Virus record (IMG/VR): IMGVR_UViG_3300031134_000004
Span: 1 to 64,000 of that record
Origin: a virus
Taxonomy: Duplodnaviria > Caudoviricetes
Direction: 5' to 3' (one strand)
DNA length: 64,000 nt
Within the stretch, counting starts at the first letter, position 1. Every line of letters begins with the position of its first letter. Shown in pieces: positions 8,373 through 39,146 of the stretch. Below the pieces are notes generated by a model. It was not told the origin of the DNA. It was given only the letters and a program-made list of their open reading frames with translations, and searched no databases. Both the position numbers and the translations under genes were made by a program.

Positions 8373-9768
8373 CGATTCCTTTGTCGGCTTTCCAGGCCGC
8401 TGCCCGATTGGTTGCAACTACCCTACCGTGCAAGACACCATCGACTACGAAATGACGATGGGTGAGCTTGCCAAGTTCTACGAGATTCGTCGGATGCAGT
8501 TACCAAGTGGTGCCATGACCAGTGTTCGGTTCCCACAAGGTCTGGACCCAGCTGATCCGTTGTTCATGTACAACGTGGCCAAGCGTGTCAAAGAAAACCA
8601 AATGCGCGCGGCGCAAGCAGCTGGCGTTGGTGATGAAGTTTTCGATAAGGTACTTAGTACTGAAGGCAACCTGATGTCGCTCATTCAGATGGGTCTTAGT
8701 CCTGGTAAGACGCTGCCTGTCACGCGAGAACAACTTACACTGTACACCAAAAACATGGGTGTGCGTCTGGATGTACCGGACAGAAACGGGATGGTCATTC
8801 CGTACGATGAAATGAAAGCGTTTGCTGAAAAGCATCCTGACCGCGTCGCTTCTATTTGTACTGTGGGTTTGAGTGCTAGTCCATCGTCGGCTGCAGAGGT
8901 AGCTGCTGTGAAACGCGCCGTCGAGACGCCGCCCTGGACTTTCTCGCTCAATGGTCTTCCAGATTCGCCAGCTAAAACGCTTGAAGCCATGCTGCAAAAG
9001 CAAGCTGTCGAGACGCTCGGGATTTCGCCAGAGTTACTCTCGCCCGATGTGAACGTTACTTCCATGAGTGAGCTGACCACCCGTTGGCAAAATCAAATCC
9101 GTAATAACAGTAAGCCCAATGCGCTTGCCAAATACATGGAGTACGCGTTTGCAACCTTTGCCAAGGCCGCTACCGATTACCTGGGAACGTTGGTGGTCAC
9201 AACGGTTAAGGACGTGCGAGTACTCAAAGCCAAGCGCGTCCATGCAACTGGCTCGATGCGTAACAAACGTCGCCGCCACTACTACGACTTGACAACGCAT
9301 CAGATCGTTACTAAGCGCTCGAAGTTCTCTGGCGTGTTTCCTGTCTCAATCGGTGAAATGGTGCCGGTGCCGGGAACGGATAAAGTTGAAGTGACTGCCA
9401 CGTTCCAGTACGACAAGCGTGAAAGCACGATGGCTGGTTCACTGAACGACTCGCTCGACAAGCTCACCGATGTGAATGCAGTGGTGGTCTCTCCAAGTGA
9501 GCCTGTTGCCATAGTGCTGCGCGCCAGTAATGAAGCGGACCGCGAAGCACTGCTTAAGGTTCTCGAAGAACATCGCAAAGAAGGACGGTGCGAGTTCAAA
9601 GAGATTGCCAAGAACCACACCGGCTACCGTTTCTGCGCTACGTACAACGACATCGTGAAGGTCGAACCACCAAGTATAACGATCGAGCCACGCATGCATG
9701 TCGATAAGGATGGCAAGATCGAGATCAGTAGTTTCAACATCGTCAGTCCACCACCTGACAAGAAATAG
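8359..9768 (+). CDS. Hypothetical protein, 469 aa
   Basis: Long ORF with phage-typical codon use; no recognisable motif. Confidence 0.75.
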   Translation: MSNNNDSFVGFPGRCPIGCNYPTVQDTIDYEMTMGELAKFYEIRRMQLPSGAMTSVRFPQGLDPADPLFMYNVAKRVKENQMRAAQAAGVGDEVFDKVLSTEGNLMSLIQMGLSPGKTLPVTREQLTLYTKNMGVRLDVPDRNGMVIPYDEMKAFAEKHPDRVASICTVGLSASPSSAAEVAAVKRAVETPPWTFSLNGLPDSPAKTLEAMLQKQAVETLGISPELLSPDVNVTSMSELTTRWQNQIRNNSKPNALAKYMEYAFATFAKAATDYLGTLVVTTVKDVRVLKAKRVHATGSMRNKRRRHYYDLTTHQIVTKRSKFSGVFPVSIGEMVPVPGTDKVEVTATFQYDKRESTMAGSLNDSLDKLTDVNAVVVSPSEPVAIVLRASNEADREALLKVLEEHRKEGRCEFKEIAKNHTGYRFCATYNDIVKVEPPSITIEPRMHVDKDGKIEISSFNIVSPPPDKK

Positions 9769-12616: not shown

Positions 12617-13039
12617 ATGTCCGATCTTCTCAAGAAACTATTGGGTCTGAACGCTTTGACGATGGCGGCTATCAATGCGTTTGCAAGCAATGTCGAGATT
12701 GCAAACAGCGCTGTCTCTTACGCTGAGCTTCCAGAAAAGACAAAGACGATGCTCGAAAAGATTGGGTTTATCCCAAGCGAGCGCGTCTACGATCCGAATG
12801 TAGAATATTCGCCTGAAGCACAAAACGTGTGGAAGATTTTCCAGCAAGCTGTTTTCGATGAAACGCACAACCTCTTGGGAGAATTCCTCGCAGAGCGTTC
12901 TGCAAAGTTCACCGAAGCTGGCTACCCGTCAAAGTTCGTGCATCACCGTTTCGTGATTGAAGGTGCTAAATCAGTGGTGGTGCGTGGTGTCCAGATCATG
13001 ATCAACGACATCGGCTTCATCATGGTCAACTACGATTAA
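12617..13039 (+). CDS. Hypothetical protein, 140 aa
   Basis: AAGG RBS; operon context. Confidence 0.65.
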   Translation: MSDLLKKLLGLNALTMAAINAFASNVEIANSAVSYAELPEKTKTMLEKIGFIPSERVYDPNVEYSPEAQNVWKIFQQAVFDETHNLLGEFLAERSAKFTEAGYPSKFVHHRFVIEGAKSVVVRGVQIMINDIGFIMVNYD

Positions 13040-13056
13040 AACAAGGAGCAATTCCA

Positions 13057-13380
13057 ATGAAACAACTCCCAGCCCGTTTGTCCCTCTTTAAGCGCATCAA
13101 CGAAGCGCTCGATAAAGCCAACGTCGAAGGCGACTTCAAAGTCACCAAGAGCCCGAAGGTTACCATCATCCGTATCGCACCTAAACGTGCTACCGGTATC
13201 CCGACCATCGTCATCCAGAAGAAGGTTGACAACATGATCGTCTACCTGCTCGATCGCTTCGATGTCAAGACCGTCGGCATCATGTCGATTCGCAATGCTG
13301 ACGATGCGAAGAAGTTCGTCAAGTGGTACATGCTGATGCTGGACCTGGCAGCATTTCGTCGCGACCCCGCTGGCATCTAA
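13057..13380 (+). CDS. Hypothetical basic protein, 107 aa
   Basis: AACAAGGAG RBS; strong codon bias. Confidence 0.7.
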   Translation: MKQLPARLSLFKRINEALDKANVEGDFKVTKSPKVTIIRIAPKRATGIPTIVIQKKVDNMIVYLLDRFDVKTVGIMSIRNADDAKKFVKWYMLMLDLAAFRRDPAGI

Positions 13381-13389
13381 GGACGCGTC

Positions 13390-13794
13390 ATGAAGCAACA
13401 ACAGTTCGCAATCAAAGTCGGCAAGATCATGGCCGAAGTGACAAAGCTGGTTAAGAATAGCGACATGTTCCAAGAGGGTATTTTCCTGTCACTCTCGACA
13501 ATCGTGTCTGTGGAAGCTGCCGGCGAAATCCCAATTTACATGGTGCACACGTTTCCTTCGCCAATGTATCCAGAGCGCCATCACCGTGGCGTGGAGATGC
13601 AGTACGTACCGGCTGGCAATGAGATGGGCGTAGTGTTTCATCCCGACTACACGCTGGCACAGATGGCATCTGTATTCATGGTGGTCGGTTTCGAGCCTGA
13701 CGCCGAACCAGTGGCGATCGCGTACCAGATCTTCGACTATCTGTTTCGCAACAATAAGCCGGAAGGTTACACCCTTCCGATGTACAATTTCTAA
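13390..13794 (+). CDS. Hypothetical protein, 134 aa
   Basis: AAGGA RBS; operon context. Confidence 0.65.
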   Translation: MKQQQFAIKVGKIMAEVTKLVKNSDMFQEGIFLSLSTIVSVEAAGEIPIYMVHTFPSPMYPERHHRGVEMQYVPAGNEMGVVFHPDYTLAQMASVFMVVGFEPDAEPVAIAYQIFDYLFRNNKPEGYTLPMYNF

Positions 13795-13866
13795 ACCCTC
13801 CAGCAATTTTTTACACCACCCAAGCTTGTTATAGAGCAAGCCCTATTTTAAACAAGGAAAAATACC

Positions 13867-14856
13867 ATGCAACAAATCAACAAAGGTCGCGTCTCGTTCT
13901 ACGGTCACGGCGGCTGCGGCACCAATATCGGCAGCCAACTCGAACACTTCCGTGAACGCGGTGAAAAGTCGTTCGCCGATCTGACCCTGACCTACGTCGA
14001 CACGAGCCGCTCGAACCTGGCCAAAAGCATCGACCCACGTCACTGCTACCTGATCGACGGCCTGGACGGTTCGGGCAAGGTCCGCGCTGAAAACCACGAA
14101 GTCATCACCCAACACATCCCGGTCCTGATGCAACAGCACCCAGCCCAAGACCTGGCCATCGTCGTGCATTCCCTGGGCGGCGGTTCCGGTTCGGTGAGCG
14201 GTCCTCTGCATGTGTCCAAGCTGATCGAAGCGGGTATCCCAACCATCGTCATCGGCGTGGCATCGGCCGACACCAAGATCGAAGCGTCGAACTCGCTCAA
14301 GACCCTGAAGTCGTACTACTCGATCGCCGGCATGCACGACGAACCACTCGTCCTGGCCCCGATCATGAACTACGCCGACAAGTCGCGTGAAGAATCCGAC
14401 GGCGCCGTTGTCCGTCTGGTGCTGGCCCTGTGCGCGCTGTTCTCCCGTGAAAACGAAGAACTCGATAGCAAAGACCTGACCCATCTGCTGAAGTTCAACA
14501 AGACGACCAGCTTCGGCGCCCAACTGGCAGCACTGACCCTCGTGGAAGCCGGTGGCACCATCGCCGATTTGGGCAACGTGATCTCGGTCGCTACCCTGGC
14601 CAAGCGCGGCGATCGCACTGCCCTGCCGGTGCCGACCGAATACCAGACCGTCGGTTATCTGGCAGACGACGCTGACGAAAAGCTGCGCAAGCGTGCGCCG
14701 CTGCACTTCATCATCAGCGACGGCGTGCTGGGCGACATCGCCAAGGATCTGCAATCTATCGTGGCCCGTTTCGATGCGGCCAGCGGCATCCGTCAAACCC
14801 AGAGCAATCTGCTGGGCAAGAACGACAAGGCTGCCGATAACGGCCTGGTGCTGTAA
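13867..14856 (+). CDS. phuZ: PhuZ tubulin (phage spindle protein)
   Basis: YGHGGCGTNIG, DGSGKVRAEN and SLGGGSGS tubulin/FtsZ motifs; 329 aa; C-terminal GLVL tail. Confidence 0.95.
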   Translation: MQQINKGRVSFYGHGGCGTNIGSQLEHFRERGEKSFADLTLTYVDTSRSNLAKSIDPRHCYLIDGLDGSGKVRAENHEVITQHIPVLMQQHPAQDLAIVVHSLGGGSGSVSGPLHVSKLIEAGIPTIVIGVASADTKIEASNSLKTLKSYYSIAGMHDEPLVLAPIMNYADKSREESDGAVVRLVLALCALFSRENEELDSKDLTHLLKFNKTTSFGAQLAALTLVEAGGTIADLGNVISVATLAKRGDRTALPVPTEYQTVGYLADDADEKLRKRAPLHFIISDGVLGDIAKDLQSIVARFDAASGIRQTQSNLLGKNDKAADNGLVL

Positions 14857-14866
14857 TAACAACAGC

Positions 14867-14884
14867 AAAATGTAGTATAGTGTG
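14867..14884 (+). promoter_or_regulatory. Putative promoter of ncRNA-1
   Basis: AAAATGTAGTATAGTGTG is 15/18 identical to AAATTTTAGTATAGTATG at 19211-19228. Confidence 0.5.
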
Positions 14885-15630
14885 AAAGGATGCCTTCGCC
14901 ATGACTTGCAAAAGTATCTTGGCGAAGGTGATCATCATTGGAGCGGGTAGCGCCTTTTTAGGTGTGAAAGCAATGGCTGAACATATCTTGGAATTTGGGT
15001 ATGTTCATCGGCTGGTGCAGGATAACTTTAAAGACATTACTCGCTTTAGTGCACTCGTAGTACTGGGCAACAATTGGAACTCACGTTCAGCGGAAACTCC
15101 AATTGTTTTTCTTTGTTCTCTAGCTCCCCGTTGGGTGAAACCGCATGCTCCCGGTGCATGTATGGATCTCACATTGGAAAGCTGATACTATGAGTGAGAT
15201 CATCTCGCCCCTTTAGTAATACTCACCTAGAAGCGGCTCCACATGGGGTCACTGGCCATATTGACATAAGTGTAAATTCATATCGTGGCAACCTAAACTT
15301 TACTCCAGAGGGGTAAATGCGGACCTGACCCTATTTTCTGAACTTCCGTCGAACGAGGCTATGAGTACTCGAGTACTCTGAGAACCCGATTGATAGTGGG
15401 AAACTCATCAAAGTCACTCGACCGCCATTGGATCAAATGGAAAACCCTGGCTTCGACCTTGCAGACTCTGTATGGAGTACAACTTGCATCCCGCATTAGG
15501 GGGGTTGAGGCCAGTTACTTGGCTGCCTTATATCGAAATACGCCCTGTGGAATAATCACCCTTTCGAGGACTTTTCCCCACATGTCGTGCTGGATTACGG
15601 GTAGCCAAGTAACTCTGGGTTTTATGCCGT
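14884..15630 (+). ncRNA. Candidate large structured ncRNA-1 (about 750 nt), class unknown
   Basis: No credible ORF; at least ten stems visible by eye, for example CCTTCGCCA/TGGCGAAGG, AACAATTGGA/TCCAATTGTT, GATCTCAC/GTGAGATC, CCAGTTACTTGGCT/AGCCAAGTAACTCTGG. Confidence 0.65.
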
Positions 15631-15690
15631 CAAAATGAAATCAATAAAAACTACACACAACAATCGTATAGTGGTTACAACGGAGCCGTC

Positions 15691-16074
15691 ATGAATGAAC
15701 ACCGCGCCACCTTAATCCAAGATATCCGTGAATACCTTGGCATCCTCCTACCTGTATTGCGTCCGATCTTAGAACAATACGCCTACACTGGGATTGATGA
15801 AGAAAGCGCCATCAAGTGGATCATCACCGAAGAACTCGAACTGATCCACTGCATGTGCGCCAACAACCATATTCGCAGTAACACTTATGAGCGCATCTAT
15901 TCGCAGCTCAATAGTGACTTACCACAGTCGTTGTCGATTCTCACGAACCAATACATCCGTGCACCTAGACTGTACGATGAGTCGTGTATCGACATCCATT
16001 TACATGAGCGTGATTTGTACATCGGGTACTTCTCGCCACCACCTCCTTTCGTTCAATACGAACCTCTGATATGA
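15691..16074 (+). CDS. Small protein, array member 1 (127 aa)
   Basis: GGAG RBS; C-terminal IHLHERDLYIGY. Confidence 0.7.
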   Translation: MNEHRATLIQDIREYLGILLPVLRPILEQYAYTGIDEESAIKWIITEELELIHCMCANNHIRSNTYERIYSQLNSDLPQSLSILTNQYIRAPRLYDESCIDIHLHERDLYIGYFSPPPPFVQYEPLI

Positions 16075-16712
16075 ACCCAAATCTCTTCCCAGTCTCTGAG
16101 ACGTACTTCGGATATTGTACTGACCTTGCCGTGCACATCGAGCAAGTGTTGTACCAGTACCTGAAGAACGACAAGCCAACACCTACCATCGTTACAGGTG
16201 GCAAGCGCCTTATCCAAAACCCGACTGTGGGTGTGGCAATCATCCACGCGTTCGCACAGCGCTACGTCGACGAATTCTGCGCCATGTGGTCGGGCAAAGA
16301 AGTGCCAGCGTTCGAAGAAGTCATGCTGCCATTCATCAAGGTCGAGTGGCGTTGCGTGTACGATGAAGATGCAAAAGAAAACGTGCTGAACTACGAACTG
16401 TTCGAGCAACTCTCGAGTCTGCTGATCGACTTGCGAACAGACTTGCGCGTCTTCATGGGTCAGAACCACTGGGTCATGCATTTCTTCAAGGCCAATGGTT
16501 CGGACTTTTACGTGCGTAAGACAATCGATTATCGCATCTACGACTGGGAACGTCGGATGACTGATGGTTCGTGGACAAACACTGTAGAAGAAGTGGAAGT
16601 CTTGAGCGGCGAATTGACCGCTAACGAACAGTCGCTTCTCGACGAAAAGAAACACCGCGCCAAAGAAGAACGCGAACGCATAGCGAACGACGCTCTCTTC
16701 GGACACATTTAA
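16071..16712 (+). CDS. Array member 2 (213 aa)
   Basis: ATGA overlap; MHFFKANGSDFYVRK. Confidence 0.72.
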   Translation: MNPNLFPVSETYFGYCTDLAVHIEQVLYQYLKNDKPTPTIVTGGKRLIQNPTVGVAIIHAFAQRYVDEFCAMWSGKEVPAFEEVMLPFIKVEWRCVYDEDAKENVLNYELFEQLSSLLIDLRTDLRVFMGQNHWVMHFFKANGSDFYVRKTIDYRIYDWERRMTDGSWTNTVEEVEVLSGELTANEQSLLDEKKHRAKEERERIANDALFGHI

Positions 16713-16721
16713 TGCACTATC

Positions 16722-17126
16722 ATGAACCGTCCAACGAGCATTATCATTTCGCTGTCCGATGCCGCCGGCACGGTCAAGAAGGGTTTTCGTGACTACGTCG
16801 CGATCCTGTTAGCCAGGAACAGTCCACGCTTGGGGCTACTTAAAGACTGTTTGGATTACGACTGCACCGATTACTTGCGGCAGGTTCTCACCGAGATCTT
16901 TGCTGACCAAGGCATCCCTGAACTCTTCGGAGGTATCTCAGGTTCGACGCAGCTCTTACTCCAAGCAGGCATGGATCGTCCTGAAGCCAGCGCCGTGACA
17001 CTTCAAGTGTACCGGATTGTCTTGGCCCAATTAACAGCGTTCTTTCCCACACTGGTGTTGGGACCGGACTCAGGCTACCAGTACGAGATGTGTAGCGAAT
17101 ACGACGCGTTTATCACGCCAGCTTAA
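16722..17126 (+). CDS. Array member 3 (134 aa)
   Basis: Tight operon; C-terminal YQYEMCSEYDAFIT. Confidence 0.7.
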   Translation: MNRPTSIIISLSDAAGTVKKGFRDYVAILLARNSPRLGLLKDCLDYDCTDYLRQVLTEIFADQGIPELFGGISGSTQLLLQAGMDRPEASAVTLQVYRIVLAQLTAFFPTLVLGPDSGYQYEMCSEYDAFITPA

Positions 17127-17137
17127 AAGGAACAATT

Positions 17138-17590
17138 ATGGGAACAACAGGTATCTTCGTGCTTCCCTTTGCTGAGGTTGTGCGGCAACTGGAAAACTTC
17201 GAAGAACTGCTGGCGTTTTATCCGGGCGGCGTTAAGAGTGTCATTCGTGATGCTTTACTGCTGGTCGATGGTCGTCGCGTAATGCGTCACCGCGCAGGGA
17301 ACTTTATCAGTGAGTGGGAAACGGCGTCACTGCCTATCTTGCTCGACAAAGTCATGCGTGTGTACGACAACTCTGCGGAAGCTGTTGTTACGCGGATCAT
17401 GGAAAACACGTCGGCCAGTCCGTACATCGAACTTGTGGTGGAGAAGATCTACCGCGAAACACAGATGGTCATGAGTAGCATGTTCAGTTTCGTCCCCGTT
17501 ACCGTCTCTTCGGATGAAGGTTGCTGGTTGGGCGAAGATTACGTTGCATGGGTTACGCTGCATGATCACTTCGTCCCTAGCGGATTATGA
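17138..17590 (+). CDS. Array member 4 (150 aa)
   Basis: AAGGA RBS; C-terminal GCWLGEDYVAWV. Confidence 0.7.
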   Translation: MGTTGIFVLPFAEVVRQLENFEELLAFYPGGVKSVIRDALLLVDGRRVMRHRAGNFISEWETASLPILLDKVMRVYDNSAEAVVTRIMENTSASPYIELVVEKIYRETQMVMSSMFSFVPVTVSSDEGCWLGEDYVAWVTLHDHFVPSGL

Positions 17591-17987
17591 CACCATTATC
17601 ATTGACTGCACTTCGGAACTCCAGCAGTTTCGCGGTGTAGTCTCTGATCTTTATATGCCCGTGTTAGAACTACCCGTTCTGCTGGGCTATATTCTTCCGA
17701 GCTTGATGAGTCGGAGTAACTTCGATGCCCGTATTACGTACCTAGCGCATCGGTGTGGGGAAGCAGAAGGAGTATATACAGGTCTCCTTGAGACGGATGA
17801 AGATATAGCCGTCTACGATGGAGTTTATGAAAGGTTTGCCAAAGCGCTGATCCAGTTCGGGTATGCTGTCAAAAATAAACTTGAGTCCTACAATGCGTAT
17901 AGGGCTGGTATATTCGCTTACGACCTAAAGGAATACGTTAATGATGCAACAGTGGTCTTTGCAAAAAGAAACCTTAGCCGCGCCTGA
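17562..17987 (+). CDS. Array member 5 (about 141 aa)
   Basis: ATG 17562 preferred; C-terminal AYDLKEYVNDATVVF. Confidence 0.62.
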   Translation: MITSSLADYDTIIIDCTSELQQFRGVVSDLYMPVLELPVLLGYILPSLMSRSNFDARITYLAHRCGEAEGVYTGLLETDEDIAVYDGVYERFAKALIQFGYAVKNKLESYNAYRAGIFAYDLKEYVNDATVVFAKRNLSRA

Positions 17988-18399
17988 TATCATCATCTTG
18001 GGCACGCAGCGAATGGTTGAACAATTCCGTCGCCGCATTCGCATGCTCACCTACGAGCAGTTGCGTAACGACTTGCTGGAAAAGGAAGCAGTGGTTCTTG
18101 AATCGTTGATCCAAGCACTGCAATACGACAACAAAGTACAAACGGAGATTATGTGCGGGACCATGGATGTCATTCGGCATGACTTTGATATTCAGGACCG
18201 GGAAGATATTGGACTGGTGGCAAGTGCATTGATTGAACTTGCTGAAGGGTTGTATTTGGAATTACAACGCGTGGGAGCGTATCAGAACGGGTACTTGTAT
18301 TACCAGTACCACAGTTTTGAAGACCGCGATTTGGTCATGGCGCGTTTGACGCTACCTGAAATTTCAGCGAAGGGTAACTATGGCCGACAACGACGTTGA
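17941..18399 (+). CDS. Array member 6 (152 aa)
   Basis: AAGGA RBS; C-terminal YYQYHSFEDRDLVM. Confidence 0.68.
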   Translation: MMQQWSLQKETLAAPDIIILGTQRMVEQFRRRIRMLTYEQLRNDLLEKEAVVLESLIQALQYDNKVQTEIMCGTMDVIRHDFDIQDREDIGLVASALIELAEGLYLELQRVGAYQNGYLYYQYHSFEDRDLVMARLTLPEISAKGNYGRQRR

Positions 18400-18790
18400 T
18401 GAAGAAGACACCACAAGGCACCCCGATGCGCCTATGAGAATCATCGTTCCGACCGAGGACATTTTCAAGGCGTTTCATCAAAGTACTGACAACCAAGTGT
18501 TTAGCACCGACTTGTACGAAATCGTCACCCAAGTCATCGTTATCCTTCTTAACAATACGGTCAATAACGTCGATGCCTTAAATGGCTTACCGTTACTTGA
18601 TCGTATGACTGACGAACGCTTTCATTCAGACACAGCGTTTGAACAGAAAGTGCGTCTTGCGACAAACACTATGGCGTGGGAAATCTATCGGCGCGTTAAG
18701 GCACTAGGCATTCACTACGAAGGCATCTTCTCGTATTTCTTCGATGGGTTTGTTGGCCAAGACATTGTGTTGTACAATTTCCCTTATTAA
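18380..18790 (+). CDS. Array member 7 (136 aa)
   Basis: C-terminal FSYFFDGFVGQDIVLY. Confidence 0.7.
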   Translation: MADNDVDEEDTTRHPDAPMRIIVPTEDIFKAFHQSTDNQVFSTDLYEIVTQVIVILLNNTVNNVDALNGLPLLDRMTDERFHSDTAFEQKVRLATNTMAWEIYRRVKALGIHYEGIFSYFFDGFVGQDIVLYNFPY

Positions 18791-18807
18791 CTTTGACTGG
18801 ATGCATT

Positions 18808-19212
18808 ATGCTTAACCTTCCTGACCTTAAGAACAAAGTCACGTATAACTTCGACGTGTACCCAACTGCCTTCATTGGCAACAACTATAAGAACGTGACC
18901 GTATTGGGCACCATCACCCGTGAGATGGCCAACATGGAAATCGACACGGCAGCGCTGCACATCCAATGCTTTAACACGCTGCCTGCGGGTACACCGAATG
19001 ATCCAGATGCGTACGACTACGTCAAGCTGCGCTTCCCTGACGGCAGCACAACCGTCATTGGCTTGGCCTGGATCAAACCAGAAACAGTTGAACTGATCGA
19101 CGCCCGTGTCATTACGGTCAAGATCGGCGGCCGTACGCCTGCTGACTTGGCCCGCATCAAAAACATCCTGGTGCAAAACGGGTTAAACGATCTGGAATTT
19201 AGTATCAGCTAA
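18808..19212 (+). CDS. Conserved phiKZ-like hypothetical protein (gp49-like position), 134 aa
   Basis: Beta-rich (TYNFDVYP...NYKNVTV); last gene before the DNA polymerase as in phiKZ synteny. Confidence 0.65.
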   Translation: MLNLPDLKNKVTYNFDVYPTAFIGNNYKNVTVLGTITREMANMEIDTAALHIQCFNTLPAGTPNDPDAYDYVKLRFPDGSTTVIGLAWIKPETVELIDARVITVKIGGRTPADLARIKNILVQNGLNDLEFSIS

Positions 19213-19228
19213 ATTTTAGTATAGTATG
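19211..19228 (+). promoter_or_regulatory. Putative promoter of ncRNA-2, ending in TATG
   Basis: Ends in TATG, the phiKZ late-promoter core with G as +1; this G is the first base of the predicted closing stem. Confidence 0.55.
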
Positions 19229-19600
19229 CAGAACCATGGAGAAGAGTTTTTTTACTGGCTTGCCCCCATGATTTGCGACAGAGGCGTGACACGTCTTGGT
19301 TGCTGTGCTTAGCGTTTCGTGCTAGAACGTTAGGTAGAGAACTTTCAATAACCAGTTACCCCTCTGGGTGTTGAAAGGATGTTAGGGCAATCAAACTTTC
19401 CATTATCGCTACGGGATTTCACTTCCTTGTTTGACCGTATCGATAGCAACTCTTTGGCTGGATGCGAGGGTCAGGTCTGCGTCTCCCCCGACGCACATAC
19501 CCCTTTCGGCGTCGCTCGAGAGTTGGAGAGGGTGGTTGTTCTGCTGGGAAAAAAGGGCTATTTAGGGAGAGGATCGAAAGGTCTTCTCCCATTTTTTTTT
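19228..19600 (+). ncRNA. Candidate structured ncRNA-2 (about 370 nt) with its own terminator
   Basis: 5' GCAGAAC (19228-34) pairs with GTTCTGC (19538-44); internal stems CATGG/CCATG, TATCGCTACGG/CCGTATCGATA, CAACTCT/AGAGTTG, TGCGTC/GACGCA; terminator at the 3' end. Confidence 0.68.
19565..19600 (+). terminator. Intrinsic terminator
   Basis: GGGAGAGGATC-GAAA-GGTCTTCTCCC followed by a T9+ tract. Confidence 0.85.
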
Positions 19601-19719
19601 TATGCCCCCAAAATAGGCTTCGGCCTTTATGCCGTATCTTTTTTTATTTGTCTAGCTCATGGAAAACAAAGAAAAATTATCGAGCGGGCTCATGGTGTAG
19701 ACCAAACAAGGAGCCGTTC

Positions 19720-21930
19720 ATGTCTGACGAAGTTCTCGATAATAATCCCTTCGTACTCCCTAAGCCAGAGTACACCCGCGACATCGCGGTGATTCGCCAT
19801 TACATCAACGATGGCGCGCTGTATTTGCACAAAATGTCGGGCAAGCCACTTGAACAGTGCGAAGCGTTTATTCGCGAAAGCTTGCAACCGGGTGGTCAGT
19901 TCGAATTTAAAGATCCTGAAGTTCACTTCCTGCTGCGTAAAGACAACGGCGATCGCGTCAAAGCCAAGACCACGCTGTCGAACTACATTAACGATGCAGT
20001 CAAGAACAATGAACTCATCGCCCCAACCTTAACGACGTATTTGCCAGCCTCGAAAGTCAGTTCGCTGTTGGTGGACTTCATTGACATCAACGTCAAAAAG
20101 CGTGGTGTGGCAAAGAAGGCCCAGTTCAAAGCCATGATGGCAGGCGACAAAGAAGTCGAGACGCTTAAGAAGGGTGAGCAAACAACGTACAAGCTCGGGA
20201 ACAACTCGATCTCCGGTGCCCACGTCTCAGCTTCGACGCCACTGTTTAACCGCACGGCGCACAGCACCTTGACGTCGAACTGCCGCTCGACTTCGGGTTA
20301 CGGTAACGCCAACAATGAAAAGTTCCTGTGTGGTAATCGCCACTACTGGAGTCCTGACATCGTTCGGGCAAATATCATCTCGATTGTGAACCATACGAAC
20401 TATCCGCAGATGGAAGCGGCGATGCAAAAGTTCGGTATCCGTGTTCCGACCGTGGATGAAACCATGCAAGTGATCGAGTATTCAGCCAAGCTGTACTGGA
20501 ACGGTCAAGACCAGTACGACCGGGTCCGTGAACTTGTCAATACCTTGACTGACCTGGAACGTGCTGCATTTGTCTACACGGGCGACCTGTACCACTTGCG
20601 TCAGTTTAACGATAACGTAGCGCGTCAATTCATCGACAAGCTCTCACGCCGTGTTGCGGACCGTACGTACGACGATCCTGATGCGATCATCACCAGTACG
20701 TCAGAAGACAGCCACCACTTGGCTACGCAAATCTGCTGCAATGAGATGCGCGGTAAGACGCTTGGTAAGAATGTCCACACTGGCAAGTACGAAGTCGAAG
20801 AAGGCGACAAGAAAAAGCCACGTCTGGAAGCTGCCGATAAGCACGCGCGTTTGATGATCGTCACGGGCACCATCGAGAACATTGACAATGTCTTGAAAGA
20901 GTACTGGGACTTGATCCGTGCATTCTGGGTAACGCCAAACATTCCTGCTTCAGTCGCTGTGTTCCCTGACAGTATCCGCCGCTCGGCCGTCACGTCAGAT
21001 ACTGACTCGACCATCTTCTCGGTGCAAGACTGGGTCATGTGGAGCGAAGGACGCATTACGTTCACCGACAAAGCCATGGGTGTGGGCGCTTCGATGATCT
21101 TCTTGGCAGCGCAGACCATCACGCACGTCTTGGCTCGCATGTCGGCGAACTTTGGTGTCGAGCAAAAACGCTTGAACCAGATTGCCATGAAGAACGAGTT
21201 TTACTTCCCGGTCTTCGTGCCAACCCAAGTGGCCAAGCACTATTACGCCAAGCGTTCGGTGCAAGAGGGTAACGTGTTCGGTGAGATGGACATGGAGATC
21301 AAGGGCGTTCACTTGAAATCCTCGAACGCACCGAAAGAAGTCATGGATGCGGCCAAGGACATGATGGACTTTATCATGTCGTCTGTCTTGCGTGAAGAAA
21401 AGATCAGCATTAACAAGATCATGACTGACATCGCTAACATCGAACGTAGCGTCATCAATTCGATTAAGCGCGGTGGTCACGAATACTTCCGCAAGGGTCA
21501 GATCAAAACGCCAAGTTCATACGTCGATGGCGAGACGGCCACGCCTTACCAACAGTATCTGCTCTGGCACGATTGCTTTGCGTGTAAGTACGGCGAGATT
21601 CAAGAACCGCCTTACATGTCGATTAAGATCTCGGCAGACTTGTCGTCACCGGCCAAGACGAAAGAATGGTTGCGTAAGATCGAAGACAAAGCACTTGTTG
21701 AACGTATCGAACGCTGGATGGATCGTCAAGGTAAGAAGCACTTGGGTACAGCCTTCATGTTGCCTGAACAAGTCTTGCAACAAGGCGGCATCCCAGAAGA
21801 AATCCTGGCTGCTGTTGATGTGCGTAAGATCGTGCTCGAAACCACCAAGGTGTTTTACCTCGTCCTCGAAACGCTTGGTATCTACATGCTCAATGGCAAA
21901 ATGTCGCGCTTGTGCGTTGACACTCACTAA
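19720..21930 (+). CDS. Family B DNA polymerase, polymerase-containing half of the split enzyme (phiKZ gp50-like)
   Basis: YKLGNNSISG (motif B-like) and SDTDSTIF (motif C); AACAAGGAG RBS before ATG 19720; 736 aa. Confidence 0.88.
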   Translation: MSDEVLDNNPFVLPKPEYTRDIAVIRHYINDGALYLHKMSGKPLEQCEAFIRESLQPGGQFEFKDPEVHFLLRKDNGDRVKAKTTLSNYINDAVKNNELIAPTLTTYLPASKVSSLLVDFIDINVKKRGVAKKAQFKAMMAGDKEVETLKKGEQTTYKLGNNSISGAHVSASTPLFNRTAHSTLTSNCRSTSGYGNANNEKFLCGNRHYWSPDIVRANIISIVNHTNYPQMEAAMQKFGIRVPTVDETMQVIEYSAKLYWNGQDQYDRVRELVNTLTDLERAAFVYTGDLYHLRQFNDNVARQFIDKLSRRVADRTYDDPDAIITSTSEDSHHLATQICCNEMRGKTLGKNVHTGKYEVEEGDKKKPRLEAADKHARLMIVTGTIENIDNVLKEYWDLIRAFWVTPNIPASVAVFPDSIRRSAVTSDTDSTIFSVQDWVMWSEGRITFTDKAMGVGASMIFLAAQTITHVLARMSANFGVEQKRLNQIAMKNEFYFPVFVPTQVAKHYYAKRSVQEGNVFGEMDMEIKGVHLKSSNAPKEVMDAAKDMMDFIMSSVLREEKISINKIMTDIANIERSVINSIKRGGHEYFRKGQIKTPSSYVDGETATPYQQYLLWHDCFACKYGEIQEPPYMSIKISADLSSPAKTKEWLRKIEDKALVERIERWMDRQGKKHLGTAFMLPEQVLQQGGIPEEILAAVDVRKIVLETTKVFYLVLETLGIYMLNGKMSRLCVDTH

Positions 21931-21939
21931 GGAAAAAGA

Positions 21940-22863
21940 ATGTTCCCTCCGAAACTAACTGGTTACGATGCTAGTTACAAAGTACCGTGCGGTCGTCCTA
22001 CGTGGTATCGGGGGTTCCCTTGCCACGATGTGATGTTGTGTCCTACCTGTAAAAAGGTTCAGGCTGACCGCAGGCTCATGACTGCAGTTGCCAGTTACGA
22101 AAAGAAAGAAAGCATGCATTACACTTTGGAACAAGCAGCAAGAAAGTCAGCGGGTTCTTTCTACTCGCCTGAATTCGATAACCATACGCCATGCGCGCCT
22201 GATGCTGACTTCGTGACGGAACACGGGATTGGCTTTTGGTATCCAACGAGCATGTTTGCGTACGGCAGCGCAATCTACCGCTGCATGGTTGACTTGATGA
22301 TCAAGCGGATCGAAGCAGCTGGTGCCGAGCCCCAATTGCGTTATCTGCCCTCCATGCCGGCATTGCCACCGGCTGATTGTGTCCACCGTGGTAATAGCGC
22401 CTATCGTACTGCTGGTGTGGAAGCGTTCGGTAAAGCAGTCATTGAAGTTCTGGACAAATACGTGAAAGACAGAATTGCTTCCGTCACGGTGGAAGAAAAG
22501 CAAAAGTTCTGTCAAACGGGCCAAGTGTACGTAAAGGAGCTGAGCTTCTTTACACCACAAGCGCCGGTTCGCGATTACGTCAGTGAAGACTCGAAGCCCT
22601 ACTGGGGCTGGACAAGTATGGGTAACTTCATCCGCGCCGTCGGGCAAGCGATGTGGAAAGAACTCAACAGCCACGCAGACAAAGCAGGCGGCGTCTCGCT
22701 GGGAGCGTTTCCTGACTATCCACCTTATCCAGTAGCGGCGCTGAAGATTGGTGACAATTGCTACTTCAGTGAGCAGCAACTGCTGGACGTGGCCAACGAG
22801 ATCATCGAAAACGCTCTTCACCGTGCCTTACCCATCATCATCAAAGCCAAGGAGAAAATGTGA
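21940..22863 (+). CDS. Hypothetical protein with Cys/His-rich N-terminus, 307 aa
   Basis: AAGGA RBS; CG...CHD...CPTC putative Zn site. Confidence 0.65.
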   Translation: MFPPKLTGYDASYKVPCGRPTWYRGFPCHDVMLCPTCKKVQADRRLMTAVASYEKKESMHYTLEQAARKSAGSFYSPEFDNHTPCAPDADFVTEHGIGFWYPTSMFAYGSAIYRCMVDLMIKRIEAAGAEPQLRYLPSMPALPPADCVHRGNSAYRTAGVEAFGKAVIEVLDKYVKDRIASVTVEEKQKFCQTGQVYVKELSFFTPQAPVRDYVSEDSKPYWGWTSMGNFIRAVGQAMWKELNSHADKAGGVSLGAFPDYPPYPVAALKIGDNCYFSEQQLLDVANEIIENALHRALPIIIKAKEKM

Positions 22864-33819: not shown

Positions 33820-35361
33820 TTGAAACTAGAAATTAACCGATTCGGTCTTCAAGGGGCACCGTCGCAAGTGAACCTGGAGCATCGTGGTGTAGTGCTCGAA
33901 TGGAACATCGCTTTGTTTGACAAGGCAAGTTTCAATGGTGAGTTCGATATCTTCGAACAAATCAACGGGTACTGGGGGCACCTGGCGATGGAAGTACAAG
34001 ACAAGATCTTCAATGTGTATCAACGCATTAAAGATGTGTTCGATTCCGTCTGGGAAAACAGTGAACTGACCAAGCAGTTGTACCAGCTCATCAAAGAGCT
34101 GTACGTGCACCATCAGTTAAGCGACATCAAGTTCTGGATCTCGTTTCGCAGTAACGTCGTGGTGCCGGCTGGCCTGCGTGAAGAATTCAAAGAGTCGCAC
34201 GAAACACCAGGCACGCGTGAACGCACGTACCTGAAGGCAGACTACGAGTGGCTCGTGGCACTGTCTGTTGCACTGCGTCCCATGGTTCCAATCTGGGGCG
34301 AGTTCATCAACCGCACGCGTCGCGATGCCGGTACGGTGTTTAAAGAGTACTACGCATTCCAGTTGCTGGCGTACTCGAGCTTGTACAACTCTGAACCAAT
34401 GGAGCGCCTGCGTGTCTACGTGGAGCATTCCTTGCCAGCGGAGAAGTCCAAAGCAGCAGCCATCTTCGGCGGCATTTCGTCAGAAGACTTTCCGATGTGG
34501 GTGTTGGGTCTGGTCGTTGTTCGGCGTTTGTCTATCGGCGACGTACGCGGCACTGATCCAGGCACCACGCTTGTGAGCTTTATCTACAAGTACATCGGGC
34601 AAAAGGTGAAGGGGCATGACAACAACTTCATCGGCATGGTCAAAGACAAGCAAGTCGAAGGTCAGGGGCAAGAAGGGGAAAACAACCTGTCCAAACTCGA
34701 AGGGTACAAGATCAAGCAGGAAATTCCTGCGGGCGATATCGCCATCATCGAGTACCGTGCACGTCAACCGCTGCATCTGGCCAAGAAGCTGTGTCCTGAC
34801 ATCAGTGAAGAACTGGTGAAGGAATCGATCGCTACGGTGACGGCGGCGCTGCAAAACAGCACGATCTTCAATCCGCAAATGACCATGGTGCAATGGGTCA
34901 TGGCTGGCGTCTTGCCACCACGCGGCTTGTTGCATCTGAAGAAGACCACGGTCTTGATGGTCATGGGTGTCGTGCAAGCGATCCTGTGGCACAAAGGTCA
35001 CCGTGAGTTGGCAGGACTCATGACGGCGCTCGAACAAGACAGCGACGATGAGATGCTGCTCGGTGGTACGGATTCCCGTGCCCGCATTCCCAAAGACATG
35101 CTCGAGCAACTCGATGCGCTGTTCCCATACTCGCGTCGTCCAACGGGCAAGATGCGTCAAGTCAAGCGTACCAACGCTGCGATCGAGACCATCGAAGAAC
35201 TCAACAAAGGGTTCGGTAGTAACGTGTGGCGTCTCACCCTCCCAGCAGCTTGGGTCGAGCAAGTCACCGGTAATAAAAACAATCGGCGGTATAGCACCCC
35301 GCACGATATCAAAGTCAAGTTGGCAGCCCTTGCCATTCAATTAGCACAACGTACGTTTTAA
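33820..35361 (+). CDS. Non-virion RNAP sigma-like specificity subunit (phiKZ gp68-like), TTG start
   Basis: 513 aa, helical; size and synteny between the chmC-like and picA-like genes. Confidence 0.72.
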   Translation: MKLEINRFGLQGAPSQVNLEHRGVVLEWNIALFDKASFNGEFDIFEQINGYWGHLAMEVQDKIFNVYQRIKDVFDSVWENSELTKQLYQLIKELYVHHQLSDIKFWISFRSNVVVPAGLREEFKESHETPGTRERTYLKADYEWLVALSVALRPMVPIWGEFINRTRRDAGTVFKEYYAFQLLAYSSLYNSEPMERLRVYVEHSLPAEKSKAAAIFGGISSEDFPMWVLGLVVVRRLSIGDVRGTDPGTTLVSFIYKYIGQKVKGHDNNFIGMVKDKQVEGQGQEGENNLSKLEGYKIKQEIPAGDIAIIEYRARQPLHLAKKLCPDISEELVKESIATVTAALQNSTIFNPQMTMVQWVMAGVLPPRGLLHLKKTTVLMVMGVVQAILWHKGHRELAGLMTALEQDSDDEMLLGGTDSRARIPKDMLEQLDALFPYSRRPTGKMRQVKRTNAAIETIEELNKGFGSNVWRLTLPAAWVEQVTGNKNNRRYSTPHDIKVKLAALAIQLAQRTF

Positions 35362-35378
35362 ACAAGGAGTCAATAATC

Positions 35379-38868: not shown

Positions 38869-39117
38869 ATGAAGAAACTGAAACTGAAAGAAGGGTACGA
38901 GGTCTTTGACGAACCGATCTGCGATCCAGATGAACTCAGAGACGTGAACATTCTGATCGAGACTTGTAAGCAACAGGGCTACGAGATCGATCAGGCAACC
39001 GTGCGTGATGCATGGACTGCGCATAGTGAAGAGTACTGTGCGAGTTGGTTGAACATCAATGGTCATGGCGACCGGTTGGTGGAGATCATTCTCCACTATA
39101 CTAAAGTCGTTGAGTAG
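38869..39117 (+). CDS. Hypothetical protein, 82 aa
   Basis: AACAAGGA RBS. Confidence 0.7.
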   Translation: MKKLKLKEGYEVFDEPICDPDELRDVNILIETCKQQGYEIDQATVRDAWTAHSEEYCASWLNINGHGDRLVEIILHYTKVVE

Positions 39118-39146
39118 TAAAGTGTGGTACAAACAAGGAGAGCATC

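What the first reader, a model, noticed from the sequence alone, without database searches (positions are those of the whole stretch)
14867..19600. Cassette architecture: two co-regulated ncRNAs bracketing a tandem paralogue array, a candidate undescribed RNA-protein module
Seen: AAAATGTAGTATAGTGTG (14867) and AAATTTTAGTATAGTATG (19211) are 15/18 identical and each lies directly before a structured non-coding block. A partial copy (GTATAGTG, about 15666) precedes the gene array. Both blocks are followed by the TATGCCGT motif (15623, 19628). Between them lie seven small paralogue-like genes and one beta-rich gene, and the unit sits between phuZ and DNA polymerase in the nucleus-related core. 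Inference: the RNAs and proteins may act together, for example as scaffold or guide RNAs for nucleus-associated trafficking or replication. Physical linkage alone does not prove this.
Basis: inference. Interest (0 to 1): 0.72.

Follow-up and report, generated by a model that had tools for sequence, protein, structure and literature searches.

The report
Two folded RNAs beside phage polymerase
A giant nucleus-forming phage makes two abundant, folded RNAs on either side of a conserved set of small genes next to its DNA polymerase; they look like separate elements rather than one RNA-protein machine, and one displays a loop that resembles the ribosome's mRNA-docking sequence and matches the phage's own ribosome-binding sites.

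Summary
The observation largely holds. Both 18-mers, the partial copy and both TATGCCGT sites are present, as are seven small genes plus an SH3-fold gene between PhuZ and a divergent family-B polymerase. Both intergenic blocks fold far better than shuffles and keep their pairing through compensatory changes in relatives. In a leaf metatranscriptome they are, bar one gene start, the only parts of the 8-kb stretch assembled from RNA.

The cassette reading fails on five points:
- TATGCCGT is the genome-wide phiKZ-type terminator tail.
- The TATAGT box also precedes an internal head protein gene.
- The first third of block 1 is a conserved 94-codon ORF with a ribosome-binding site.
- The large block-1 RNA is missing from relatives that keep the array.
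- Only four of the seven array genes are demonstrably related, and they show no RNA-binding fold.

Block 2 is the more interesting element. It is a ~370-nt self-contained RNA family kept between the SH3 gene and the polymerase in many chimalliviruses, including cultured FLC9 and Goslar. Its hallmark apical loop (UUCCUUGUUU) resembles the 16S anti-Shine-Dalgarno tail and complements the phage's commonest ribosome-binding site (AAACAAGGA). I infer translational control by RNA pairing. This scan noted a similar RNA before in a Goslar-like phage.

The parts
13867..14856 (+). PhuZ tubulin gene (329 aa). Its RBS is TAAACAAGGAA at about 13848-13858.
   Evidence: phrog_4733 1.5e-76; PF00091 and PF22334; RBS
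14873..14884 (+). Promoter-like box TAGTATAGTGTG ahead of block 1. It is kept in L082, L083 and L092 but not in L093 or L094.
14901..15185 (+). ORFx, 94 codons. It has an SD 8-10 nt upstream and a hydrophobic N-terminus (VAKVIIIGxG). It is poorly conserved after about residue 70, and its start codon sits in a conserved hairpin.
   Evidence: An ORF is kept open in W, L082, L083, L093, L094, FLC9, L004, L020 and L014. Shuffles give an ORF of at least 79 codons in 4-20% of cases per sequence. No family match.
15069..15107 (+). Hairpin followed by a U-run, inside ORFx: an attenuator-like element. The RNA contig of run X6 begins here (15073).
   Evidence: fold; compensatory changes between W and L082 read from alignment A3
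15150..15632 (+). Structured 3' domain of block 1 (RNA-1). It has 87 consensus pairs and includes the palindromic hairpin GAGUACUCGAGUACUC.
   Evidence: 94.2% of cells paired; 25 pairs with changes on both sides against 0-5 in slid controls. RNA contig covers 15073-15492. The X2 variant shows 0 changes in 15186-15690.
15513..15632 (+). Terminal long hairpin of RNA-1 followed by GUUUUAUGCCGU, a phiKZ-type terminator tail.
   Evidence: model R2 and alignment A8; terminator motif from PMC10914365
15664..15673 (+). Partial box TCGTATAGTG, 18 nt before the start of array gene 1. Relatives have CGTATAGC or CCTATAGC here.
15691..17590 (+). Array genes 1-4 (127, 213, 134 and 150 aa): 15691-16074, 16071-16712, 16722-17126, 17138-17590.
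   Evidence: One-to-one orthologues in L082, L083, L093 and L094, 30-78% identical. No Pfam or PHROG match. The AF2 model of gene 4 (pLDDT 79.7) shares topology and BFVD hits with gene 6.
17562..18790 (+). Array genes 5-7 (141, 152 and 136 aa), true paralogues: 17562-17987, 17941-18399, 18380-18790.
   Evidence: hhalign prob 87-96%, E 3e-7 to 3e-9. The gene-6 AF2 model has pLDDT 86.8. It hits many uncharacterised chimallivirus proteins, several per phage, and has no PDB match.
18808..19212 (+). SH3DP gene: the SH3-fold protein associated with phage DNA polymerases.
   Evidence: PF20287 1e-32; phrog_3235
19217..19228 (+). Promoter box TAGTATAGTATG ending in TATG. The inferred +1 is G19228, by analogy with phiKZ late promoters.
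   Evidence: TATAGTATGC is invariant in 5 relatives. TA..TATG lies at the same place in L093, L094, L006, L007, L010, L014 and L069. PMC4666361.
19228..19600 (+). RNA-2: a self-contained structured RNA of about 370 nt.
   Evidence: z -4.4. 125 consensus pairs, 42 with changes on both sides against 9-15 in slid controls. RNA contig covers 19246-19556 at word depth 86.5. Model R1 hits fall in the same gap in L093, L010, L094, L020, L014, L006, L007 and L001.
19403..19446 (+). Hairpin whose 20-nt apical loop (19415-19434) carries the invariant UUCCUUGUUU (19423-19432). The motif is anti-SD-like and complementary to the phage RBS AAACAAGGA.
19565..19635 (+). Tandem terminators. The first is a GAAA-capped hairpin (19565-19590) plus a U10 run and UUAUGCC. 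The second is the hairpin GGCUUCGGCC plus UUUAUGCCGU.
   Evidence: motif from PMC10914365
19703..21930 (+). PolB RBS CAAACAAGGAG (19703-19713) and the divergent family-B DNA polymerase gene (19720-21930).
   Evidence: PF20286 5e-246; RBS

Best explanation
This stretch is the conserved chimallivirus core block PhuZ ... SH3DP-PolB. It holds two separate RNA elements, not one cassette.

Element 1 (14.88-15.63 kb), shown: a transcript that starts with a small conserved ORF (ORFx, 94 codons, with an SD) and continues into a ~480-nt covariation-supported structured domain. The domain ends in a phiKZ-type terminator. Only the nearest relatives have it.

Element 2 (19228-19600), shown: a self-contained ~370-nt structured RNA. 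A TATG-type promoter box sits right after the SH3DP stop codon and a strong intrinsic terminator closes the unit. The family is kept at this position across a wide clade, including the cultured phages FLC9 and Goslar.

Inferred mechanism for element 2: its invariant apical loop (UUUCACUUCCUUGUUUGA) acts as an anti-Shine-Dalgarno-like sequence. It would pair with the phage's stereotyped ribosome-binding site (AAACAAGGA[A/G]). That site is found before PhuZ, PolB, thymidylate synthase, dCTP deaminase, an RNA-polymerase-like gene and about 30 other genes. Pairing would tune or time their translation, in trans or on read-through PolB transcripts.

Inferred mechanism for element 1: translation of ORFx through the internal hairpin plus U-run controls how much of the downstream structured RNA is made. 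The role of that RNA is unknown.
For: Expression: in metatranscriptome X6 the only contigs on 13800-22000 are 15073-15492 (word depth 15), 19246-19556 (86.5) and a gene start at 21894-22000+ (6.7). The flanking genes have none.

Structure:
- z-scores of -6.2 and -4.4.
- RNA-2: 88.7% of cells paired, 42 double-change pairs against 9-15 in slid controls, 0/500 shuffles as good.
- With 8 divergent members, 50 of 55 pairs show double changes, though this alignment was fitted to the model.
- RNA-1 3' domain: 94.2% paired, 25 double-change pairs against 0-5.

Constraint: the 1.2%-diverged variant X2 has 0 changes in 15186-15690. About 6.6 would be expected at the rate of the flanking genes (34 in 2617 nt).

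Family breadth:
- All new R1 hits lie in the SH3DP-PolB gap.
- That gap is 400-600 nt, and ORF-free in many of them, in most loci with PolB at least 44% identical.
- A YUCCUU(G) motif occurs in about 20 such gaps, including FLC9 and Goslar.
- The motif sits in the apical loop in 9 of 9 folds, with differing stems.

Loop and RBS:
- AAACAAGGA occurs 28 times in the genome, 25 of them 3-12 nt before a start codon.
- AAACAAG, AACAAGG and ACAAGGA are the commonest 7-mers upstream of genes.
- Genes carrying the site are listed.

Punctuation:
- The phiKZ terminator motif ...YTTATKYYGT (PMC10914365) matches TTTATGCCGT, which is intergenic genome-wide.
- phiKZ late promoters are TATG with +1 at the G (PMC4666361).

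ORFx: the SD and open frame are kept in 9 of 10 relatives.
Against: - No transcript ends, strand or timing could be read, because only contigs were available.
- The contigs could come from RNA fragments stabilised by structure rather than from discrete RNAs.
- A test of whether each phage's loop fits its own RBS regions better than other phages' loops gave no signal. Pairing therefore rests on the shared core only.
- Any pyrimidine-rich loop containing UCCUU is complementary to SD sequences.
- The strong terminators argue against cis action on PolB, while the fixed position next to PolB argues for it, so trans versus cis is open.
- R1 did not score FLC9, L005, L019, L022 or L025. Their membership rests on position and the loop motif.
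- ORFx residues beyond about 25 are barely conserved, and codon-position bias is weak.
Confidence: 0.6

Rival explanations
1. One reading: the two RNAs and the seven array proteins form one RNA-protein module. The RNAs would serve as scaffold or guide RNAs for nucleus-linked trafficking or replication, co-regulated by the shared box.
For: - The RNAs are physically linked to the array and share a promoter-like box.
- The array and RNA-2 co-occur throughout the clade.
- The array proteins belong to a chimallivirus-restricted family of unknown function.
Against: - RNA-1 is absent where the array is kept: L001, L006, L007, L011 and L019, with no model hits.
- The box before RNA-1 is not kept in L093 or L094.
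- The same box precedes a head protein gene.
- TATGCCGT is generic.
- The array proteins have no known RNA-binding fold and no PDB match.
- Co-occurrence of RNA-2 with the array is no more than general synteny, which also holds for PhuZ, SH3DP and PolB.
Confidence: 0.08
2. RNA-2 is a cis-acting leader of the polymerase gene. Transcripts that read through the terminators carry the anti-SD loop, which pairs with the PolB RBS (CAAACAAGGAG, 19703-19713) about 270 nt downstream. This would gate PolB translation, with the terminators acting as an attenuator.
For: - RNA-2 always lies upstream of PolB, usually 230-360 nt from its start.
- An 11-bp pairing with the PolB RBS is possible, and both partners are invariant in the near relatives.
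- T4-like phages autoregulate polymerase translation through an RNA operator (my own knowledge, not tested here).
Against: - Two or three strong terminators separate RNA-2 from PolB, and fresh TATG(CC) motifs follow them.
- In L001 a 77-codon gene lies between the RNA and PolB, and in L003 about 900 nt do.
- The same RBS is shared by about 30 other genes.
- The RNA contig stops at 19556 and does not run into PolB.
Confidence: 0.2
3. The RNA-2 loop is a protein-binding mimic of the 16S rRNA 3' tail. It would act as a decoy or recruiter for a ribosomal or translation factor such as bS21 or S1, as OLE RNA P6 does for bS21. It would not pair with mRNA.
For: - The loop CACUUCCUU differs from the anti-SD CACCUCCUU at one base, and L005 has CCUCCUU exactly.
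- The anti-SD mimic of OLE RNA binds bS21 (PMC12054373).
Against: - In OLE the mimic is paired with an SD-like strand. Here it lies in an open loop.
- The conserved 3' extension GUUU matches the phage RBS context AAAC rather than the 16S tail.
- No binding could be tested.
Confidence: 0.1
4. Block 1 is simply the mRNA of a small membrane-like protein (ORFx) with a long, stable, structured 3' UTR. The structure serves only to stabilise or terminate the transcript and has no function of its own.
For: - The ORF and SD are kept.
- The structured part ends in the terminator hairpin.
- Goslar also has a small gene plus a terminator right after PhuZ.
Against: - 480 nt with 87 conserved pairs, invariant unpaired islands and zero changes in a 1.2%-diverged strain is far more constraint than a terminator needs.
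- The RNA contig covers the structured part, not the ORF.
- Goslar gp235 is unrelated to ORFx.
Confidence: 0.2
5. The blocks are origin or primer transcripts (R-loop origins), or decayed mobile elements such as intron or homing-endonuclease remnants, next to the replication genes.
For: - The blocks lie beside PolB.
- L001 carries a ligase-like gene and an HNH gene at the block-1 site, so the site accepts insertions.
Against: - No Rfam intron or other family matches, even at E up to 10.
- There is no GC-skew turning point here.
- Covariation and strain-level constraint show present function as folded RNA.
Confidence: 0.04

Closest known systems
phiKZ ncRNA candidates, above all '5'UTR_gp40' (196 nt, just after PhuZ gp39), found by Grad-seq and ONT-cappable-seq (Gerovac 2021 as cited in PMC10914365)
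   Same: These are chimallivirus-encoded short transcripts ended by premature or intrinsic termination. One lies directly downstream of PhuZ, as block 1 does.
   Different: They are about 90-200 nt candidates defined by read ends. The passages I read mention no covariation-supported fold and no anti-SD-like loop. Here the RNAs are about 370 and about 750 nt, with conserved multi-helix folds. Sequence homology to the phiKZ RNAs was not shown.
About 200-nt folded RNA with an anti-SD-like loop upstream of PolB in a Goslar-like phage
   Same: It has the same position (SH3DP-PolB gap), the same hallmark (a pyrimidine UUCCUU loop on a hairpin) and the same terminator tail. I checked this in Goslar itself.
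   Different: It is shorter (298-nt gap). Model R1 was not run on Goslar, and R3 (RNA-1) found nothing there. The link rests on position and loop motif, not on an alignment.
OLE RNA P6 anti-Shine-Dalgarno mimic bound by ribosomal protein bS21 (PMC12054373)
   Same: It is a large structured non-coding RNA that displays a copy of the 16S anti-SD sequence.
   Different: OLE is bacterial (Bacillota). Its mimic is paired with an SD-like strand and binds a protein. Here the motif lies in an open apical loop, differs at one base from CCUCC in most members, and is extended to fit the phage's own RBS.
Phage translational repression of early and replication genes: T4 RegA, and the gp43 operator for polymerase autoregulation (my own knowledge, not checked here)
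   Same: The proposed outcome is the same: occlusion of the ribosome-binding sites of a set of replication and nucleotide-metabolism genes, polymerase included.
   Different: Those systems use proteins that bind mRNA. Here an RNA would do it by base pairing, and nothing has been tested experimentally.
phiKZ-type intrinsic terminator motif (hairpin + TTATKYYGT) and TATG late promoter (PMC10914365, PMC4666361)
   Same: TTTATGCCGT after G+C-rich hairpins occurs genome-wide here and at the ends of both RNAs. TATG lies at the start of RNA-2.
   Different: Nothing differs; this part of the finding is ordinary chimallivirus punctuation. The box before block 1 reads TGTG, not TATG.

Membership tests
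Any Rfam 15 family (introns, GOLLD, ROOL, OLE, 6S, riboswitches, etc.) | Covariance-model score at or above the family's gathering threshold | tested here: not met
   There were 0 matches in the whole window at gathering thresholds. In 14800-19800 at E up to 10 there were only chance-level hits of at most 23 bits.
phiKZ-type intrinsic terminator | G+C-rich hairpin followed by TTATKYYGT (PMC10914365) | tested here: met
   The motif follows hairpins at 15619-15630 and 19626-19635, with a weaker TTTATGCCC at 19598. The same motif lies at about 30 other intergenic sites.
phiKZ nvRNAP late promoter | TATG with transcription starting at the G | tested here: inconclusive
   The motif is present and conserved before RNA-2. 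Block 1 has TGTG or TTTG instead. Start sites cannot be read from contigs.
RNA-2 family (SH3DP-PolB gap RNA) | Position between SH3DP and PolB, the R1 core fold, and an apical loop with YUCCUU(G) | tested here: met
   The window scores 118 bits. Untrained members are L093 (70 bits), L010, L094, L020 (29-31 bits) and L014, L006 (about 21 bits), all in the gap. Loop motif.
Trans-acting antisense regulator of ribosome-binding sites | Accessible conserved region complementary to target RBSs | tested here: met
   The 10-nt loop core complements AAACAAGGAA, the commonest RBS context; 25 of the 28 genomic AAACAAGGA sites lie before start codons.
Trans-acting antisense regulator of ribosome-binding sites | Co-variation of regulator and targets across lineages | tested here: not met
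   An own-loop versus own-RBS pairing test across 19 loci gave ranks scattered from 1 to 19. The test has low power.
Anti-SD mimic that binds bS21 (OLE P6 type) | Exact CCUCC(U) copy paired with an SD-like strand, and bS21 binding | tested here: not met
   Most members have UUCC rather than CUCC, and the motif is in an open loop. Binding cannot be tested with these tools.
CsrB/RsmZ-type protein sponge (considered for RNA-1) | Many GGA motifs displayed in hairpin loops | tested here: inconclusive
   There are 16 GGA in 746 nt, against a genome mean of 9.1 (sd 2.9). The enrichment is mild, several of the motifs lie in stems, and the density is far below CsrB.
Tandem paralogue array | Detectable homology among the seven genes | tested here: inconclusive
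   Genes 5-7 are related (hhalign E 3e-7 to 3e-9). Genes 1-4 are unrelated by profile. Gene 4 shares topology and BFVD hits with gene 6. Genes 1-3 were not modelled.
SH3DP / divDNApol / PhuZ core genes of chimalliviruses | Pfam or PHROG profile match above cut-off | tested here: met
   PF20287 112.8 bits, PF20286 818.7 bits, phrog_4733 258.6 bits.

The most novel reading that the evidence does not exclude
RNA-2 is a virus-encoded mimic of the ribosome's anti-Shine-Dalgarno tail. An abundant structured RNA of nucleus-forming jumbo phages would use one conserved loop to pair with the phages' own stereotyped ribosome-binding sites. It would thereby time, silence or escort the mRNAs of replication and nucleotide-metabolism genes. 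This would be an RNA counterpart of T4 RegA, possibly tied to mRNA export from the phage nucleus.
Probability: 0.25. Interest if true: 0.85.

Novelty: new variant of a known kind. Interest (0 to 1): 0.6.

Why it matters
Chimalliviruses make their mRNAs inside a protein-walled nucleus and translate them outside. How translation is ordered in time and space is unknown. Phage-encoded regulatory RNAs in this family are so far only lists of candidates.

This work yields two covariation-supported RNA families with no Rfam match. One has a concrete, testable mechanism (an anti-SD-like loop against a stereotyped RBS), and members exist in cultured phages with tractable hosts: Goslar on E. coli and FLC9 on Burkholderia glumae. 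Antisense knock-down methods for such phages already exist (PMC12571901).

It also removes a false lead. The 'cassette' signals are ordinary chimallivirus promoter and terminator punctuation. Part of the 'non-coding' block 1 is an unannotated small gene, which is also left unannotated in FLC9.

Tried and rejected
- Known RNA families: Rfam gave nothing at gathering or permissive thresholds.
- Sequence searches: blastn against phages and blastn or nhmmer of the window's blocks against 80 metagenome loci found no similarity. Closer relatives had to be reached through proteins.
- False positive: the exact-motif scan of viral contigs gave one chance hit inside a coding region (L088), which I discarded. 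The RNA-1 motif had no hit.
- ORFx has no homologue at database-wide E-values and no PHROG match.
- RNA-1 models R2 and R3 find only their training sequences. L093, L004, L020 and FLC9 have long gaps after PhuZ, but relatedness to RNA-1 is unproven. A shared ATGCGTATGGA-like stretch in L004 and L020 is only a hint.
- Origin idea: cumulative GC skew shows no turning point here.
- CsrA-sponge idea for RNA-1: only mild GGA excess.
- Loop-RBS co-variation: none detected.
- Array proteins: the Atlas gave no usable neighbour and Foldseek found no PDB match.
- Goslar gp235, the small gene after PhuZ, is a Cys-rich protein unrelated to ORFx.
- Metatranscriptome: parts of the stretch without RNA contigs are not evidence of silence, since contigs only show presence.
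- No complex prediction was run, because nothing pointed to a specific protein pair.

Full report
**What the DNA is.** The window is the first 64 kb of a single 224,654-bp contig. It was recovered from a phyllosphere metagenome, and near-identical DNA occurs in plant, biofilm and food metagenomes. Markers show a chimallivirus-like jumbo phage:
- PhuZ at 13867-14856 (phrog_4733, 1.5e-76);
- the SH3-fold protein that accompanies jumbo-phage polymerases at 18808-19212 (PF20287, 1e-32);
- a divergent family-B polymerase at 19720-21930 (PF20286, 819 bits).

The nearest cultured relative is Burkholderia phage FLC9, with PhuZ 42% identical.

**Check of the observation.** The core TAGTATAGTRTG matches exactly only at 14873 and 19217 in the window. 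Two long gene-poor blocks exist, at 14857-15690 and 19213-19719. Both fold much better than dinucleotide shuffles, with z of -6.2 and -4.4. Rfam has no match.

**The shared 3' motif is punctuation.**
- TATGCCG occurs 37 times in the genome, 30 of them intergenic, typically right after G+C-rich hairpins.
- It fits the conserved phiKZ terminator motif, a hairpin followed by TTATKYYGT, described from ONT-cappable-seq (PMC10914365).
- The same tail closes the corresponding RNA in Goslar and FLC9.
- The motif therefore marks the 3' ends of both RNAs, as it marks many other transcripts.

**The shared 5' box is a small promoter-like class, not an RNA-specific signal.**
- TAGTATAGTG also lies at 71728, about 110 nt before an internal head protein gene (phrog_2497).
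- It also lies at 39103 on the minus strand, before a small gene.
- Before RNA-2 the box ends in TATG. phiKZ late promoters are TATG with transcription starting at the G (PMC4666361).
- A TA..TATG box sits a few bases after the SH3DP stop codon in most relatives.
- Before block 1 the box reads TGTG or TTTG and exists only in the closest relatives. L093 and L094 have none, and there the ORF follows PhuZ directly.

**The RNAs are made.** One public metatranscriptome (X6, phyllosphere) holds this phage. On the 8.2-kb stretch laid, its contigs cover:
- 15073-15492 (word depth 15);
- 19246-19556 (word depth 86.5);
- about 150 nt at the start of the gene after PolB (word depth 6.7).

PhuZ, the array, SH3DP and PolB have none. 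DNA carry-over would be even, so this argues for abundant, stable RNAs. Contigs cannot give ends, strand or timing.

**Relatives.**
- Protein-guided searches gave 80 metagenome loci with PolB 34-60% identical.
- They also gave nearer relatives: L082 (168-kb contig), L083-87, L090, L091, L093 and L094.
- The order PhuZ, gap, seven small genes, SH3DP, gap, PolB is kept in these and in FLC9 (770-nt and 536-nt unannotated gaps).
- Goslar and, in looser form, phiKZ show the same block.

**RNA-2.**
- Five sequences 67-78% identical align over the whole unit. They share invariant islands and an invariant GAAA-capped terminator.
- The consensus fold has 125 pairs. 88.7% of cells are paired and 42 pairs changed on both sides, against 9-15 when partners are slid. 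No shuffle out of 500 does as well.
- A model of the 155-nt core (R1) then found untrained members in L093 (70 bits), L010, L094 and L020 (29-31 bits). Without filters it found L014 and L006 (about 21 bits) and L007 and L001 (13-14 bits).
- Every one of these hits lies on the + strand inside the SH3DP-PolB gap.
- On the model-fitted alignment of eight members, 50 of 55 pairs show double changes. Such an alignment leans towards the structure, but slid controls stay at 36-46% paired.
- The gap is 400-600 nt, and ORF-free in many of them, in most loci with PolB at least 44% identical. It is 55-200 nt in many of the more distant loci.

**The hallmark of RNA-2.**
- The longest invariant stretch, GGGAUUUCACUUCCUUGUUUGACCG, forms the 20-nt apical loop of a hairpin at 19403-19446.
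- Its complement contains AAACAAGGAA. AAACAAGGA occurs 28 times in the genome, and 25 of these lie 3-12 nt before the start of an ORF of at least 50 codons.
- AAACAAG, AACAAGG and ACAAGGA are the commonest 7-mers upstream of genes.
- The 36 genes with AACAAGGA all lie on the + strand. They include PhuZ, PolB, thymidylate synthase, dCTP deaminase and an RNA-polymerase-like gene.
- The loop also resembles the 16S anti-SD tail: CACUUCCUU against CACCUCCUU. L005 has CCUCCUU exactly.
- A YUCCUU(G) motif is present at the matching place in about 20 long-gap loci, in FLC9 and in Goslar. It is absent from most short-gap loci.
- In nine of nine members folded, it sits in the apical loop of hairpins with different stems.
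- I infer that the loop engages ribosome-binding sites.
- A test of whether each phage's loop fits its own RBS regions better than other phages' loops gave nothing. The inference therefore rests on the shared core.
- Whether it acts in trans, on read-through PolB transcripts, or as a protein decoy is open. OLE RNA's anti-SD mimic binds bS21 (PMC12054373).

**Block 1 is composite.**
- Right after the box comes an SD (AAAGGAUG here, AAAGGAGG in relatives) and an ATG that opens a 94-codon frame.
- An ORF of 75-111 codons starts 11-45 nt after the PhuZ stop in W, L082, L083, L093, L094, FLC9, L004, L020 and L014. Shuffles give an ORF of at least 79 codons in 4-20% of cases per sequence.
- The N-terminus is conserved and hydrophobic in the near group; the rest is not conserved. 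Codon-position bias is weak.
- The frame runs through a conserved hairpin plus U-run at 15069-15107, exactly where the RNA contig begins.
- Downstream, 15150-15632 has 87 consensus pairs across W, L082, L083 and L094. 94.2% of cells are paired and 25 pairs changed on both sides, against 0-5 in slid controls. A first count used a mistyped structure and should be ignored.
- In the 1.2%-diverged strain X2, all three changes in block 1 fall inside ORFx (one synonymous, two not). None falls in 15186-15690, where about 6.6 would be expected at the rate of the flanking genes.
- Models of two sub-domains find no member beyond those four sequences.
- L001, L006, L007, L011 and L019 keep the array with only 166-205 nt after PhuZ. 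L001 instead carries a ligase-like gene and an HNH gene there.
- phiKZ has a reported 196-nt RNA candidate just after PhuZ. That is a positional analogue only.

**The array.**
- All seven genes have one-to-one orthologues that are 30-78% identical.
- Profile comparison relates only genes 5, 6 and 7 (E 3e-7 to 3e-9). Genes 1-4 match nothing.
- AlphaFold models of gene 6 (pLDDT 86.8) and gene 4 (79.7) share a topology: an N-terminal strand, a helical bundle, a long helix and a C-terminal beta-hairpin.
- The two models share many BFVD hits to uncharacterised chimallivirus proteins, several per phage.
- There is no PDB match and no known RNA-binding fold.

**Verdict.** The stretch holds ordinary chimallivirus punctuation, an unannotated small gene, a lineage-restricted structured RNA domain and a widely conserved structured RNA. 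No paper found in my searches describes the conserved RNA's anti-SD-like loop.

Noticed in passing
whole genome; e.g. window 13848-13858, 19703-19713, 35360-35378, 39128-39146: There is a stereotyped translation start region, (T/A)AAACAAGGA(A/G) followed by about 8-10 nt and ATG. It precedes about 36 ORFs, and all 36 lie on the + strand; none was found on the - strand.
   Followed up: partly
window 15356-15371: RNA-1 holds a perfect 16-nt palindrome, GAGTACTCGAGTACTC. L094 keeps it palindromic through paired changes (GAGCACTCGAGTGCTC). It folds as a 6-bp hairpin with a self-complementary UCGA loop, so RNA-RNA dimerisation (a kissing loop) is conceivable.
   Followed up: no
L001 4301-5948: In one relative, the site after PhuZ holds an ATP-dependent-ligase-like ORF (KLDG motif) and an HNH/AP2-like endonuclease ORF in place of block 1. 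The site appears to accept insertions.
   Followed up: no
L096 (Burkholderia phage FLC9, LC667451) 8485-9254 and 13030-13565: The deposited FLC9 annotation leaves both gaps empty. The first holds a 75-codon ORF that starts MFGQFR. The second holds a hairpin with the loop UUUCUUCCUUGUUU. One array gene (gp6) is annotated on the opposite strand to its neighbours.
   Followed up: partly
window 19556 onward, in run X6: The RNA contig leaves the reference at 19556 and continues for 29 nt with different sequence that contains its own small hairpin (CGAGAG..CUCUCG). The strain in that sample seems to have another 3' end for RNA-2.
   Followed up: no
L004 4699-5494 and L020 4644-5486: Two GC-rich relatives have 800-840-nt gaps after PhuZ that are 70% identical to each other. 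Each holds a Trp/Arg-rich ORF that starts MFSFRW. The RNA-1 models do not detect them, so this may be a second, diverged version of block 1.
   Followed up: partly
window 14893-14928: The ORFx start codon lies in the 5' arm of a conserved hairpin (GCCUUCGCCAUG ... UGGCGAAGGU). The 3' arm encodes the conserved residues AKV and contains AGGUGAUC, an 8-nt match to the extended SD consensus. The hairpin may occlude the start codon.
   Followed up: no
G000 156219-157400: A 393-aa ORF with the AAACAAGGA RBS matches a PHROG annotated as transposase (phrog_4285, 2.5e-26).
   Followed up: no
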